Virus record (IMG/VR): IMGVR_UViG_2713896768_000001
Location: 1 to 17,616 of that record
DNA from: a virus
Taxonomy: Duplodnaviria > Heunggongvirae > Uroviricota > Caudoviricetes
DNA: 17,616 bases
Strand: one strand, 5' to 3'
Part shown: piece by piece, positions 11,292 to 17,616 of the stretch
Layout of the letters: every line of letters starts with the position of its first letter
Position numbering within the stretch: position 1 is the stretch's first letter
The notes under the pieces: generated by a model
Databases searched by the model: none
Seen by the model: only the letters and a program-made list of their open reading frames with translations
What the model was told of the DNA's origin: nothing
Translations under genes and position numbers: made by a program

Positions 11292-11642
11292 ATGGGTAAG
11301 GCCAAACTTCTAATTTGTGGTGTTCTTTTATCAGTTGTCGGCACGTCAGAGGCCTTAGCTGATACTCAGTGCGGGCCGTATCGCCTCACTGCGGGCAAAG
11401 AAGGACTAATGCTTATTAACGGGGTAAAACCTGAAACGCAAAAAATGTCTTTTCTCAAGTCTAAAGATGACTACCAAAACATGAAAGCAGAATGGATGGT
11501 TGCAACCGACCAACCCGGCCGCTGGGTTGGGCTTGAGTACATCAAGCGCAACGGCAAAGCCATTCTCAACGCACAGTGGTTGCAAGCCAGCATGGATTCG
11601 CCGCGTCAGTATGCAACATACGACTGCGTGAAGGTGAAATGA
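11292..11642 (+). CDS. Small exported protein with Sec signal peptide (accessory moron gene; function unknown)
   Basis: ATG at 11292, 2 nt after the hub stop, with an AGGT RBS. N-terminus MGKAKLLICGVLLSVVGTSEALA|DTQCG… has a basic n-region, hydrophobic core and A-L-A signal peptidase I site, with no lipobox. The mature protein is about 94 aa with two Cys. By eye it is AT-richer than flanking tail genes and it interrupts the conserved hub-spike adjacency. Confidence 0.55.
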   Translation: MGKAKLLICGVLLSVVGTSEALADTQCGPYRLTAGKEGLMLINGVKPETQKMSFLKSKDDYQNMKAEWMVATDQPGRWVGLEYIKRNGKAILNAQWLQASMDSPRQYATYDCVKVK

Positions 11643-11659
11643 TGATCCGCATCCTTAAA

Positions 11660-11724
11660 CATCAATAATCGTTGATCTCGCGTTTTTATTATGCACTAAT
11701 CTGTACATGTACAGAGAGGGTGCC
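11660..11724 (+). promoter_or_regulatory. Putative promoter/operator of the toxin-antitoxin operon, including a perfect 14-bp palindrome CTGTACATGTACAG (11701-11714) and a GAGAGGG Shine-Dalgarno
   Basis: 82-nt AT-rich intergenic region. The palindrome was checked by reverse complement and abuts the RBS. A weak sigma70-like pair is possible (TTGATC at 11672-11677, ACTAAT at 11695-11700, 17-nt spacer). Palindromic operators bound by Phd/YefM antitoxins are established for this family. Confidence 0.45.
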
Positions 11725-12138
11725 ATGAAAATCATTACTTACACGCAAATGCGATCGGATTTATCTGCAACGCTGGACTGTTTACGCTCTGGTGAAAGCG
11801 TCACAGTTACGCAGCGCGGAAAGCCCGACCTTGTCATCAGTGCAAAATCAGTTGATGAAATCGCTTCCGCAGATGAGGTAAAAACATCTGCGAAAACAAT
11901 AGACACGCATCTTGCGCAATTAATTGCATCGAATTTGTCACCACAGATAACGGAGGGTGTCATGAAGCTTACTAAGCAATTGGATGCCCTTCTTCAGTCT
12001 GATGAGGCTCGCCAGACTATGATGAAGGCCACTAATGCAGCAGTTGCTTTGCAGGGCGTGTCTGAGTCATTTATCAAAGCTCTGCAACATACTCAGACCA
12101 AGCATGCGGACATCATAAAAAAACTGGAAGATAAGTAA
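11725..12138 (+). CDS. Phd/YefM-family antitoxin with an extended helical C-terminal domain (137 aa; typical Phd/YefM is about 75-90 aa)
   Basis: N-terminus MKIITYTQMRSDLSATLDCLRSGESVTVTQRGKPDLVISAKS matches the YefM/Phd N-terminal fold (compare remembered YefM [41 protein letters not shown]). The ATG at 11725 with a GAGGG SD is preferred over the track start at 11707, which lies inside the palindrome. The stop overlaps the toxin start (TAATG). Confidence 0.7.
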   Translation: MKIITYTQMRSDLSATLDCLRSGESVTVTQRGKPDLVISAKSVDEIASADEVKTSAKTIDTHLAQLIASNLSPQITEGVMKLTKQLDALLQSDEARQTMMKATNAAVALQGVSESFIKALQHTQTKHADIIKKLEDK

Positions 12139-12545
12139 TGACTGAGATTACATTCCTTTCGGTAGATGAGGTCATCGCTATTCAGAAGAGCACATTGCCA
12201 AATAGCGGACAACCAGACCGGGGAAAACTCGAAGGTGCCCTCAATCGCGTCGATAACTTACGCATGTATGAAGGATGTGAGGATTTATTTAAATTTGCAG
12301 CTATGTACATGGTTGCGATAGCGAAGTCTCACGCTTTTAATGACGCCAATAAGCGAACGGCTTTCCAGGCCGCCAGCGTGTTTTTGCTTTTGAATGGCTA
12401 TGAACTGAATACCTCAATGGAGTTAGTCAAGCTGACCATCTTTGCTGCTACGGGAGAGGCCGACTGCGATAACACTGCTTTGGCGCTTAAACTTTTGTCA
12501 GATTATAAGAATGAGCTGCTGGCAGATACGATAACTGGCTACTGA
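12138..12545 (+). CDS. doc: Doc (death-on-curing) / Fic-family toxin
   Basis: 135-aa ORF translationally coupled to the antitoxin. It contains the Doc signature H-x-F-x-D-A-N-K-R (SHAFNDANKRTAFQAASVFLLLNGY, codons at about 12330-12356), compared with remembered P1 Doc …GHIFNDANKRTALNSALLFLRRNG…. Confidence 0.8.
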   Translation: MTEITFLSVDEVIAIQKSTLPNSGQPDRGKLEGALNRVDNLRMYEGCEDLFKFAAMYMVAIAKSHAFNDANKRTAFQAASVFLLLNGYELNTSMELVKLTIFAATGEADCDNTALALKLLSDYKNELLADTITGY

Positions 12546-12567
12546 TAGCAAAAAGTAAATTGTACAC

Positions 12568-12592
12568 AACCCGCCGCCGAGCGGGTTTTTTT
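12568..12592 (+). terminator. Rho-independent terminator (stem ACCCGC / GCGGGT, loop CGCCGA, followed by a T7 run)
   Basis: Read directly: aacccgc-cgccga-gcgggtttttttat, 23 nt after the toxin stop and just before the RBS of the spike gene at 12604. Confidence 0.65.
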
Positions 12593-12603
12593 ATGGAGTT
12601 TTT

Positions 12604-17120: not shown

Positions 17121-17376
17121 TCTCAATCAGAATGGGTTCTCCCTTCTCGTTAACAGATATTTCCATTCCTTCAGGGATTTCAGATGCAGTAAAAAACCAG
17201 TTATCTTCTGGTAATTCAACAGCCCCGGTCACGTCATGAAGACCGGGGATTACTTCAGTCAAAGTAACAGGATTAAACAGGCGCACAATAAACCCTCCAG
17301 GAAAAAGCACTTGTTGATGGTGTTCCGTCGTACATCTGGCAGCGGACATAAAAACCGGTATTAGTGACCTGGTCAT
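17089..17376 (-). CDS. Minus-strand ORF downstream of the alternative fibre domain: possible short tfa' or frame-disrupted remnant
   Basis: 95-aa track ORF, but its first 34 codons overlap the Sv' reading frame and no convincing RBS/start follows the Sv' stop. Its 3' end overlaps the + strand tfa by 32 nt. It ends …EIKPSQEELAR. Coding status is uncertain. Confidence 0.25.
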   Translation of the reverse strand: MTRSLIPVFMSAARCTTEHHQQVLFPGGFIVRLFNPVTLTEVIPGLHDVTGAVELPEDNWFFTASEIPEGMEISVNEKGEPILIEIKPSQEELAR

Positions 17377-17616
17377 CCACGATCATTGAAACGTGAACGT
17401 TATTAGATGTGCCCCCATAATCCGTTCCTATTCTTTCCGCTATGCTGATAAAACGTGAAAGCTTAGGTAGCGCAATTGGATAAACGACTTTAGCCAGTCC
17501 ATTATCATTAGAACCCCCCGTTCCAAAGACTTCTATTGCACCATCTGACCAGCGTATCCACGCACCATTGGCATTAGCTCCTCGCTGAATGACATATCTG
17601 GCTTCTCCCAAACCAA
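17273..17616 (-). CDS. Alternative tail fibre C-terminal variable domain (Sv'-like), 5'-partial: open to the window edge, silent in this orientation
   Basis: The - strand frame is open from the window end to the stop at 17273-17275. The track start is a TTG, and the reading frame continues through the crossover site in the same frame as the fibre constant region. Confidence 0.5.
   Translation of the reverse strand, partial: GLGEARYVIQRGANANGAWIRWSDGAIEVFGTGGSNDNGLAKVVYPIALPKLSRFISIAERIGTDYGGTSNNVHVSMIVDDQVTNTGFYVRCQMYDGTPSTSAFSWRVYCAPV
17603..17616. other. Right crossover site for the invertase, truncated by the window end (TTCTCCCAAACC-AA…)
   Basis: The last 14 nt of the window are the exact reverse complement of 16004-16017 (TTGGTTTGGGAGAA), i.e. 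the first half-site plus core of an inverted copy of the left site. The rest would lie beyond the window. Confidence 0.55.

What the first reader, a model, noticed from the sequence alone, without database searches (positions are those of the whole stretch)
11725..12138. Phd/YefM-like antitoxin with an unusually long C-terminal extension
The N-terminal 45 residues match the YefM/Phd DNA-binding fold well, but the protein is 137 aa, roughly 60 residues longer than canonical Phd (73 aa) or YefM (about 83 aa). The extra C-terminal region (…VKTSAKTIDTHLAQLIASNLSPQITEGVMKLTKQLDALLQSDEARQTMMKATNAAVALQGVSESFIKALQHTQTKHADIIKKLEDK) is predicted helical. It could be an expanded Doc-neutralising domain or an additional sensor or partner-binding module.
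Basis: partly seen in the sequence, partly recalled or inferred. Interest (0 to 1): 0.6.

Follow-up and report, generated by a model that had tools for sequence, protein, structure and literature searches.

The report
Long-spacer Phd antitoxin with nested start
A prophage-carried Phd–Doc toxin–antitoxin pair whose antitoxin is twice the normal length because about 70 fast-evolving residues sit between its DNA-binding head and its toxin-binding tail, and whose gene holds a conserved internal ribosome-binding site that may also produce a short, tail-only antitoxin.

Summary
The ORF is real: 11725-12138 (+), 137 aa, overlapping a Doc toxin gene (12138-12545). The pair is low-GC cargo in the baseplate module of a myovirus prophage. 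It is not a frameshift artefact. The identical protein occurs on 506 contigs, relatives keep the length, and every segment has dN/dS below 1.

The "C-terminal extension" reading is only partly right. Residues 1-42 are a Phd-fold head. It is tied to a TGTACATGTACA operator found in 18 of 18 loci that have the head and 0 of 11 that lack it. Residues 113-137 are a near-invariant tail that always abuts a Doc gene. The extra length is an insert between head and tail.

Across 53 cluster representatives this spacer is 14-216 aa (median 67; window 72). It matches no known domain. Sister loci with 98-100% identical heads and 84-88% identical Doc have unrelated spacers, so it is unlikely to be an obligatory Doc-contact surface.

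Unexpectedly, an in-frame ATG (Met80, 11962) follows an invariant GGAGGG kept by nucleotide-level constraint in 11 of 11 homologues. Natural head-less antitoxin genes start at or within a few residues of that position. A nested 58-aa short antitoxin is plausible but untested.

Verdict: new variant of a known kind, moderate interest.

The parts
11700..11715 (.). Probable operator: perfect 16-bp palindrome TCTGTACA|TGTACAGA made of two abutting TGTACA hexamers, 9 nt upstream of the antitoxin start codon
   Evidence: One search finds the palindrome. One search finds it once in the window against 0.04 expected; the exact dodecamer occurs once, 10-18 nt upstream of the start codon, in 18 of 18 loci with an N-domain-bearing antitoxin and in 0 of 11 loci without one. 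TGTACA is the published operator core of yefM-yoeB (PMC4803016). Binding itself is inferred.
11725..12138 (+). Antitoxin gene, 137 aa, stop included
11725..11850 (+). Residues 1-42: Phd/YefM-fold dimerisation and DNA-binding head
   Evidence: AF2 pLDDT is about 90.
11851..12060 (+). Residues 43-112: inserted lineage-specific spacer. It has a variable, low-confidence part (43-71) and a moderately conserved amphipathic helical part (72-112).
   Evidence: No Pfam domain. No Foldseek match.
11952..11957 (+). Internal Shine-Dalgarno-like GGAGGG, 4 nt before the in-frame ATG of Met80 at 11962-11964
   Evidence: The hexamer is invariant in 11 of 11 homologues. Codon 76 always ends in G although it encodes six different residues. 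It is one of the two longest invariant nucleotide runs in the gene; the other lies in front of doc.
11962..12138 (+). Nested in-frame ORF from Met80: candidate 58-aa short antitoxin (MKLTKQLD...KKLEDK)
   Evidence: Inferred. Stand-alone genes starting at or near the equivalent position sit next to intact Doc in L021 and L022 and in Xenorhabdus L009, L010, L012 and L013.
12061..12135 (+). Residues 113-137: near-invariant C-terminal amphipathic helix SESFIKALQHTQTKHADIIKKLEDK, the probable Doc-neutralising element
   Evidence: Weak end-to-end match to the Salmonella Phd 52-73 peptide. Hot spots from PMC9207808.
12125..12131 (+). Invariant TGGAAGA inside the last antitoxin codons, 6-12 nt before the doc start; probable doc ribosome-binding or coupling site
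   Evidence: the longest invariant nucleotide run in the gene.
12138..12545 (+). Doc toxin gene, 135 aa, with Fic motif HAFNDANKR
   Evidence: TIGR01550, 81.3 bits against a 38.65 cut-off. (Fic). (P1 Doc 3k33_A, E=7e-20). (phrog_577).
12568..12597 (+). Intrinsic-terminator-like hairpin plus T-run after doc

Best explanation
This is an autoregulated Phd-Doc type II toxin-antitoxin cassette carried as cargo in a prophage baseplate module. Its antitoxin has three parts.

1. Residues 1-42 form the Phd/YefM dimeric head. It binds the TGTACATGTACA palindrome just upstream of the gene and represses the operon.
2. Residues 113-137 are a conserved amphipathic helix. It folds onto Doc and blocks its EF-Tu kinase activity, as residues 52-73 of canonical Phd do.
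3. The extra ~70 residues are inserted between these two modules. This spacer evolves quickly and is replaced wholesale between sister lineages, so it is not an essential Doc-contact surface.

In the window's subfamily, the distal half of the spacer (80-112) plus the tail form a self-contained 58-aa unit. A conserved internal Shine-Dalgarno site and ATG at Met80 suggest this unit is also translated on its own. That would give a short antitoxin that neutralises Doc but cannot bind DNA, alongside the full-length repressor-neutraliser. When antitoxin synthesis stops or the antitoxin is degraded, free Doc arrests translation.

Shown here: the architecture, the conservation patterns, the co-occurrence of head and operator, the adjacency of tail and Doc, and the nucleotide-level constraint on the internal site.

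Inferred: DNA binding, Doc neutralisation by the tail, actual use of the internal start, and the biological role (prophage retention or anti-phage defence).
For: Head: hhalign to P1 Phd 92.9%; Foldseek 4zlx_A rmsd 0.9 A.

Operator: 18 of 18 loci with the head against 0 of 11 without it. TGTACA is the known yefM operator core.

Tail: F116, A119, L120, T123, H127, A128, I130, I131, L134, E135, D136 and K137 are invariant across 41 sequences. The tail ends at the start of a Doc gene in the loci that carry it, apart from decayed copies. It is retained in head-less antitoxin genes next to intact Doc. H127, I131 and L134 align with the experimentally defined hot spots H63, L67 and L70 of Salmonella Phd.

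Insert: HMM dissection of 53 representatives gives a spacer of 14-216 aa, median 67. DNA similarity is lost sharply at the spacer borders. Spacer identity is 17-27% where heads are 98-100% and Doc 84-88% identical. Spacers match no Pfam domain and have a hydrophilic, disorder-type composition.

Internal start: GGAGGG is invariant in 11 of 11 homologues, and the third base of codon 76 is fixed across six different amino acids. Only 3 of 39 invariant-residue codons have an invariant third base: E77, and L134/E135, which form the doc RBS. Natural genes start at or near the same position.

Doc: TIGR01550 and P1 Doc matches, Fic motif present.

Cargo status: GC 44-47% against 52-61% in the flanks, a terminator after doc, a variable slot in related prophages, and the cassette is far better conserved than the flanking baseplate genes.
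Against: The tail is not statistically similar to solved Phd C-termini. The profile against the PDB gives only chance hits. hhalign against P1 Phd finds nothing. The match to the Salmonella peptide is only P=0.004 at 9% probability.

Within the window's subfamily the spacer is under purifying selection (dN/dS 0.11-0.48). Helix 73-91 is strongly amphipathic. So the spacer may contribute to Doc binding or stability here.

The scan found no consensus sigma-70 promoter.

The internal Shine-Dalgarno site could serve another purpose. A predicted hairpin that sequesters it has no covariation support. No expression data exist.
Confidence: 0.6

Rival explanations
1. The whole region 46-137 is an enlarged Doc-neutralising domain: the additional helices wrap further Doc surfaces, for example the second, low-affinity Phd site or this clade's longer Doc C-terminal tail.
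For: Helices 73-91 and 114-136 are both strongly amphipathic. The mid module 72-112 is under purifying selection and is conserved in 12 representatives. It is retained together with the tail in head-less antitoxins. Doc in this clade has a conserved ~10-residue longer C-terminal tail than P1 Doc.
Against: Sister loci with 84-88% identical Doc carry unrelated spacers. Relatives of 72-84 aa with almost no spacer still pair with Doc. AF2 gives no compact fold (pTM 0.30 and 0.39).
Confidence: 0.2
2. The spacer is only a passive, weakly constrained flexible tether. Only its length and disorder matter, for example for protease lability or the entropic control of DNA binding described for P1 Phd. The internal GGAGGG-ATG is not used for initiation.
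For: Spacer length ranges from 14 to 216 aa. Several relatives have tandem repeats in the spacer. Composition is hydrophilic and disorder-type. No domain matches. pLDDT is below 50 for residues 46-57.
Against: Nucleotide-level invariance of GGAGGG includes a fixed third base under six different residues, matched only by the doc RBS. dN/dS is well below 1. Natural genes start at or near Met80.
Confidence: 0.25
3. The spacer is a sensor or partner-binding module, for example one recognised by a protein of an infecting phage or by a host protease adaptor, and its diversity reflects an arms race.
For: Conserved flanks with cassette-like replacement of the middle. The pair is always prophage cargo, in the baseplate slot or in a lambdoid early or accessory region beside other candidate defence genes.
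Against: No fold, domain or homologue outside the family. No dN/dS above 1. No PADLOC hit for the antitoxin. No direct evidence of any partner.
Confidence: 0.1
4. Artefact: a frameshift or a fusion of two genes in this assembly.
For: None beyond the unusual length.
Against: The identical protein is on 506 contigs and the length is conserved across genera. Every segment is under purifying selection. RefSeq annotates the same 137-aa CDS in independent complete genomes.
Confidence: 0.02

Closest known systems
Phd-Doc of bacteriophage P1 (PDB 3K33, 3KH2, 4ZM0)
   Same: Same gene order with start-stop overlap. The N-terminal fold is homologous. The toxin is homologous, with the Doc-type Fic motif. 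It is also prophage-borne.
   Different: P1 Phd is 73 aa, with its Doc-binding segment (52-73) directly after the head. Here about 70 residues are inserted. The C-terminal motif is not detectably similar to P1 Phd 52-73. The candidate operator is two abutting TGTACA hexamers. A conserved internal RBS and ATG is present.
Salmonella Typhimurium Phd-Doc (PMC9207808)
   Same: Both antitoxins end in L-x-D-K. H63, L67 and L70 (hot spots and gatekeeper) align with the invariant H127, I131 and L134.
   Different: Salmonella Phd is 73 aa with no spacer. Similarity is weak (P=0.004). The first helix of the tail would need a 4-residue insertion to align F56 with F116.
YefM-YoeB of E. coli (operator with a TGTACA core; Kedzierska 2007, as reviewed in PMC4803016)
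   Same: Phd/YefM head and the TGTACA operator hexamer.
   Different: In yefM the two palindromes are 12 bp apart centre to centre. Here the hexamers abut (6 bp). The toxin is Doc, not YoeB.
PanA(Phd-C):Doc of Corynebacterium doosanense and the modular-antitoxin concept of NetFlax (PMC10440598)
   Same: A portable, linear Doc-neutralising element attached to another domain. The isolated Phd-C peptide is unstable in vivo unless given bulk. That fits a mini-antitoxin carrying 33 extra helical residues.
   Different: There is no Panacea (DUF4065) domain here. The neutralising element is C-terminal to a Phd head and separated from it by a variable spacer.
Enterococcus faecalis Phd-Doc (PDB 9VZC; PMC13034048)
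   Same: Shows that Phd-Doc modules vary in architecture. Its C-terminal toxin-binding peptide SKQKHNELYKELVT resembles TKHADIIKKLEDK by eye.
   Different: Its head has an AbrB/MazE-like fold and the antitoxin is 79 aa. The similarity was not detected by the profile search of the PDB.

Membership tests
Phd/YefM antitoxin superfamily (PF02604) | N-terminal beta-alpha-alpha-beta-beta dimerisation and DNA-binding fold | tested here: met
   Foldseek hit to 4zlx_A with rmsd 0.9 A over 39 columns, followed by other Phd and YefM chains. hhalign to a P1 Phd profile: 92.9%, E=3.8e-7. AF2 pLDDT about 90 for residues 1-40.
Phd/YefM antitoxin superfamily (PF02604) | Score at or above Pfam/NCBIfam curated thresholds | tested here: inconclusive
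   PF02604 scores 28.5 bits against a 29.8 cut-off. TIGR01552 scores 20.2 against 20.8. Both are just below threshold because only the first half of each model is matched. 54 of 57 family representatives hit PF02604 at E<0.01.
Phd/YefM antitoxin superfamily (PF02604) | Toxin-binding C-terminal segment directly following the head, total length about 70-95 aa | tested here: not met
   137 aa. 72 residues lie between the head and the C-motif by HMM dissection.
Phd/YefM antitoxin superfamily (PF02604) | Autoregulation through a palindromic operator (TGTACA core in YefM) | tested here: met
   The sequence feature is present and co-occurs perfectly with the head, 18 of 18 against 0 of 11. Actual binding and repression cannot be tested with these tools.
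Phd-Doc type II toxin-antitoxin module | Downstream, translationally coupled Doc toxin with Fic motif HxFxD(A/G)NKR | tested here: met
   TAATG overlap. TIGR01550 scores 81.3 bits against a 38.65 cut-off. P1 Doc E=7e-20. The motif is HAFNDANKR.
Phd-Doc type II toxin-antitoxin module | C-terminal helix homologous to Phd 52-73 that occupies the Doc groove | tested here: inconclusive
   No similarity to P1 Phd 52-73. Weak end-to-end alignment to the Salmonella Phd peptide, with three hot spots coinciding. Position, invariance and adjacency to Doc support the role.
Phd-Doc type II toxin-antitoxin module | Antitoxin neutralises Doc toxicity; Doc phosphorylates EF-Tu | not testable with these tools
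   Needs co-expression and kinase assays.
Multidomain antitoxins with an accessory sensor domain (PanA/Panacea type) | Recognisable globular accessory domain (DUF4065 or other) | tested here: not met
   No Pfam domain in any of 57 family members, nor in 10 isolated spacers. No Foldseek hit for residues 58-137. pTM is 0.39.

The most novel reading that the evidence does not exclude
The antitoxin gene encodes two proteins from one reading frame: a full-length repressor-neutraliser and, from the conserved internal GGAGGG-ATG at Met80, a 58-aa neutraliser that cannot bind DNA. The short form would add neutralising capacity. It would compete with the long form for Doc, so it would set how strongly Doc acts as co-repressor. 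Because the short ORF also ends on the doc start codon, it would couple doc translation to itself. A predicted hairpin that sequesters the internal site might make this synthesis conditional on ribosomes translating from upstream. I found no such nested two-isoform arrangement described for type II antitoxins in the literature I could search.
Probability: 0.35. Interest if true: 0.6.

Novelty: new variant of a known kind. Interest (0 to 1): 0.45.

Why it matters
Phd-Doc is a textbook model for how an antitoxin's disordered tail couples toxin binding to operator binding. A natural family in which head and tail are held 14-216 residues apart gives ready-made material for testing how tether length and content affect neutralisation, co-repression and antitoxin lability. 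In this family the middle is swapped while both ends and the toxin stay nearly constant.

If the internal start is used, it would add a new layer of antitoxin-to-toxin ratio control. It would also explain how stand-alone mini-antitoxins arise. Practically, it shows that annotating this protein as a plain "Phd/YefM family antitoxin" hides a distinct architecture.

Tried and rejected
2. A profile of the C-terminal 30 residues against all PDB sequences gave only chance syntaxin hits at E about 0.05 and no Phd chain. hhalign against a P1 Phd profile found nothing.
3. An HMM of the narrow subfamily tail against the Salmonella and P1 peptides was not significant.
4. Foldseek of the helical fragment model against the PDB gave 0 hits.
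5. Pfam on 57 family members and on 10 isolated spacers at E up to 1 gave nothing above threshold. PADLOC and PHROGs gave no hit for the antitoxin.
6. The idea that helices 72-91, 92-112 and 113-137 are internal repeats has little support. Only helix 2 against helix 3 is weakly similar in register (45% probability). Helix 3 against the tail is not significant. No DNA tandem repeat was found.
7. The idea that different spacers are the same DNA read in different frames is not supported. The nucleotide alignment simply loses similarity in the spacer.
8. The hairpin that sequesters the internal Shine-Dalgarno site is predicted in most homologues. It has no compensatory changes and does not beat the shuffled or slid controls.
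9. The scan found no consensus sigma-70 promoter and no Rfam family.
10. tblastn of the antitoxin against 50,697 phage records gave no match.
11. Searches for the RefSeq accessions and for internal-start antitoxins in the paper library gave nothing relevant.

Full report
**1. The observation**

An RBS-like GAGAGGG sits 4 nt before the ATG. The TAA stop overlaps the ATG of the next gene (TAATG), a 135-aa Doc toxin at 12138-12545. Doc matches TIGR01550 at 81.3 bits against a 38.65 cut-off, the Pfam Fic family, and P1 Doc 3k33_A at E=7e-20, and it carries the motif HAFNDANKR.

The first ~42 residues are Phd-like:
- Pfam PF02604 scores 28.5 bits, just below its 29.8 gathering score because only half the model is matched.
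- A family profile aligns to a P1 Phd profile at 92.9% probability.
- The AF2 model superposes on the P1 Phd N-domain 4zlx_A at 0.9 A over 39 columns.

The length is genuine. The identical protein is on 506 contigs. Sixty-eight clusters at 90% identity from Escherichia, Citrobacter, Enterobacter, Cronobacter, Salmonella, Serratia, Klebsiella, Erwinia, Pectobacterium, Pantoea and Xenorhabdus are mostly 128-157 aa. Every segment has dN/dS below 1.

**2. Surroundings**

The window is the late structural module of an E217/Pam3/KPP10-like myovirus prophage. It runs from capsid, cement and neck proteins through sheath, tube, chaperone, tape measure with an SLT domain, Dit-like protein, plug, hub, spike (gpV), gpW, gpJ and DUF2612 to the tail fibre and its assembly protein.

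The toxin-antitoxin pair lies between a small signal-peptide ORF (11292-11642, phrog_3443) and the spike gene.
- GC falls to 44-47% there against 52-61% on either side.
- A terminator-like hairpin follows doc.
- In related E. coli prophages the same slot holds a DUF4236 gene on the other strand, or a 53-aa hypothetical.
- In divergent prophages that do carry the pair, Doc is 93-94% identical while hub and spike are only 52-69% identical.

So the pair is mobile cargo in a variable slot. It is rare: 5 of 5,426 complete E. coli genomes carry it, and no sequenced phage record does.

**3. Anatomy of the antitoxin**

Alignment of the close family shows a near-invariant head (1-38), a variable stretch (about 39-71), a moderately conserved helical stretch (72-112) and a near-invariant tail F116-x2-A-L-x2-T-x3-H-A-x-I-I-x2-L-E-D-K137.

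I searched 1.84 billion cluster representatives with the family profile and found 84 relatives. Separate HMMs for head and tail show the following:
- 53 representatives have both parts, separated by 14-216 residues. The median is 67 and the window has 72.
- 7 representatives have the tail only (56-67 aa).
- Only 12 share the window's middle module.

The spacers have the following properties:
- They match no Pfam domain.
- They are hydrophilic and rich in disorder-promoting residues.
- Several contain tandem peptide repeats.

The sharpest comparison involves three loci from Enterobacter, Lelliottia and a lambdoid prophage. Their heads are 98-100% identical, tails 77-82%, and Doc 84-88%, but their spacers are only 17-27% identical. 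Nucleotide similarity is lost exactly at the spacer borders. Relatives of canonical length (72 and 78 aa) with a related tail also sit in front of Doc genes.

The extra length is therefore an insertion between the two canonical modules, not a C-terminal extension. Within its own family the window's length is ordinary.

**4. What each part probably does**

*Head and operator.* A perfect 16-bp palindrome TCTGTACA|TGTACAGA lies 9 nt before the start codon. The dodecamer TGTACATGTACA occurs once in the window against 0.04 expected. It occurs once, 10-18 nt upstream of the start codon, in all 18 fetched loci whose antitoxin has the head, and in none of the 11 loci that lack it. TGTACA is the published operator core of yefM-yoeB (PMC4803016). 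In that system the two sites are 12 bp apart; here they abut. Autorepression is inferred.

*Tail.* It always ends on the start of a Doc gene. It is the most conserved segment, and it is strongly amphipathic. It survives in Xenorhabdus genes of 56-57 aa that have lost the head but keep an intact Doc.

In Salmonella Phd the residues F56, I59, M60, H63, L67 and L70 of the 52-73 peptide MDDEFAAIMAVHGNELRELADK are the binding hot spots (PMC9207808). hhalign aligns AVHGNELRELADK end to end with TKHADIIKKLEDK, which puts H63, L67 and L70 on the invariant H127, I131 and L134. The statistic is weak (P=0.004). The tail shows no detectable similarity to P1 Phd or to any PDB chain. Doc neutralisation by the tail is therefore a strong inference from comparative genomics, not a demonstrated homology.

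*Spacer.* AF2 gives helices at 48-70, 73-91, 93-110 and 114-136 with pLDDT 46-78 and pTM 0.30. Modelled alone, residues 58-137 give helices 61-70, 73-90 and one long helix 93-136, with pLDDT 83 and pTM 0.39. Foldseek finds no match. This looks like a segment that folds conditionally, not a globular domain.

**5. An unexpected feature inside the spacer**

The in-frame ATG at 11962 (Met80) is preceded by ACG GAG GGT GTC. That places GGAGGG 4 nt upstream, and it is the only strong Shine-Dalgarno-like 5-mer in the window's gene. Its context is almost identical to that of the true start (AGGGTGcCATGAA against AGGGTGtCATGAA).

The comparison covers 11 homologues with DNA, down to 48% protein identity:
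- The hexamer is invariant in all of them.
- Codon 77 is always GAG.
- Codon 76 always ends in G although it encodes T, R, K, M, S or A.

A codon alignment of the 10 full-length homologues among them provides an internal control. The only invariant nucleotide runs longer than 5 nt in the gene are this GGAGGG and TGGAAGA, which lies just before the doc start. Of 39 codons with an invariant residue, only three have an invariant third base: E77, and L134 and E135, which form the doc site.

The ATG follows 4 nt after GGAGGG in 10 of 11 homologues. The product would be 58 aa: part of helix 73-91, helix 93-110 and the tail.

Natural genes begin at or near that point:
- Two metagenomic contigs have lost the head and operator. 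They encode the 58-aa protein with the same GGAGGG-ATG, followed by an intact Doc and the spike gene.
- The Xenorhabdus mini-antitoxins start within a few residues of that position; their tblastn matches begin at residues 79-91.

Isolated Phd C-terminal peptides are reported to be unstable or slow-acting in vivo unless given extra bulk (PMC10440598; PMC9207808). The 33 extra helical residues could supply that bulk.

I infer that a short, neutraliser-only isoform is probably made in addition to the full-length protein. This is untested. A hairpin pairing GGAGG with a downstream CCUUC or CCUCC is predicted in most homologues. It has no compensatory changes and does not beat the controls, so I do not claim it.

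**6. Rivals**

- *Enlarged Doc-binding domain.* This remains possible for this subfamily, given the amphipathic helix 73-91, the purifying selection, and the retention of the module in mini-antitoxins. The spacer replacements beside near-constant Doc argue against it as a general role.
- *Purely passive tether.* This fits the family-wide variability. It does not fit the nucleotide-level constraint or dN/dS of 0.1-0.5.
- *Sensor module.* This is not excluded. It has no positive evidence beyond the hypervariability and the prophage or defence-island context.
- *Assembly artefact.* This is excluded.

**7. Comparison with known systems and novelty**

The head, the operator core, the gene order and the toxin place this in the Phd-Doc family. 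It fails the canonical layout, in which the tail directly follows the head. Its tail is a distinct sequence variant.

I found no paper on this family or on nested antitoxin isoforms in the held library. That search is not exhaustive.

I rate it a new variant of a known kind. A toxin-antitoxin specialist would find the long, swappable spacer mildly surprising. The conserved internal start would be of real interest if confirmed.

Noticed in passing
window 11643-12603; loci L016, L017: The gap between the phrog_3443 ORF and the spike gene gpV is a variable cargo slot. It holds Phd-Doc here, a DUF4236 gene on the opposite strand in E. coli 873.10, and a 53-aa hypothetical in E. coli C 236-04A.
   Followed up: partly
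window 11292-11642 (+): A 116-aa ORF with an N-terminal signal-peptide-like sequence (MGKAKLLICGVLLSVVGTSEALA/D) sits inside the baseplate module. It matches phrog_3443 (function unknown), is conserved next to the hub gene in all related prophages, and has lower GC than the structural genes.
   Followed up: partly
L002, L003 compared with the window: The toxin-antitoxin cassette is far better conserved than the baseplate genes around it (Doc 93-94% and antitoxin 83% identical, against 45-69% for hub, small ORF and spike). This suggests the cassette moves between divergent prophages while landing in the same slot.
   Followed up: partly
L005, L007, L015; proteins P0079-P0092: A subgroup has an almost identical head (MRKVSYTQMRAELSDILDAIRNGETVVVTQRGRPDTVL) and tail (KHAKIIKALEDK) but mutually unrelated spacers of 39-73 aa. 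Some of these spacers look beta-rich. The replacement is cassette-like with sharp DNA boundaries.
   Followed up: partly
proteins P0074, P0078, P0083, P0097, P0110: The spacers of these relatives contain tandem peptide repeats, for example MPNYLDDLKQAQKA three times in P0083 and about 25-aa repeats in P0074. They bring the antitoxins to 180-266 aa.
   Followed up: no
L009, L010, L012, L013 (Xenorhabdus); L006, L008, L011, L014: Xenorhabdus carries 56-57-aa head-less antitoxins next to intact Doc. L012 and L013 keep half of the operator (TGTACAcataca). Other loci are decayed copies with a truncated Doc or an orphan tail, and two of them lie beside gpV- or gpJ-like tail genes.
   Followed up: partly
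window 12495-12542 (Doc residues 120-135): Doc of this clade has a conserved C-terminal tail (LSDYxN[DE]L...) about 10 residues longer than P1 Doc. Its function is unknown. It could contact the antitoxin spacer.
   Followed up: no
window 11707-11709: An upstream in-frame ATG inside the operator palindrome gives a 143-aa product that some database records use (P0002, P0017). It has no RBS and the family alignment starts at 11725.
   Followed up: yes
window 11989-11991 (Leu89 codon) and 11985-11996: Leu89 is encoded by CTT or CTC in all 10 homologues that have Leu there, never by the common CTG, and the preceding codon usually ends in C. This gives CCUUC or CCUCC, complementary to the internal GGAGG. 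It suggests an element that sequesters the Shine-Dalgarno site, but covariation does not support it.
   Followed up: partly
window 17273-17611 (-); L002 10084-10575: Downstream of the tail-fibre assembly gene, an ORF on the opposite strand weakly matches a tail-fibre C-terminal domain (Gp53-like_C, E=4.6e-4). In a related prophage the same region has tail-fibre-assembly fragments on both strands. This may be an invertible host-range segment.
   Followed up: no
PDB 3k6q_A: A 139-aa structural-genomics antitoxin from Syntrophomonas wolfei (SWOL_0700) shares the Phd-like head. Long Phd-fold antitoxins of other lineages therefore exist in the PDB. I did not examine its C-terminal part.
   Followed up: no
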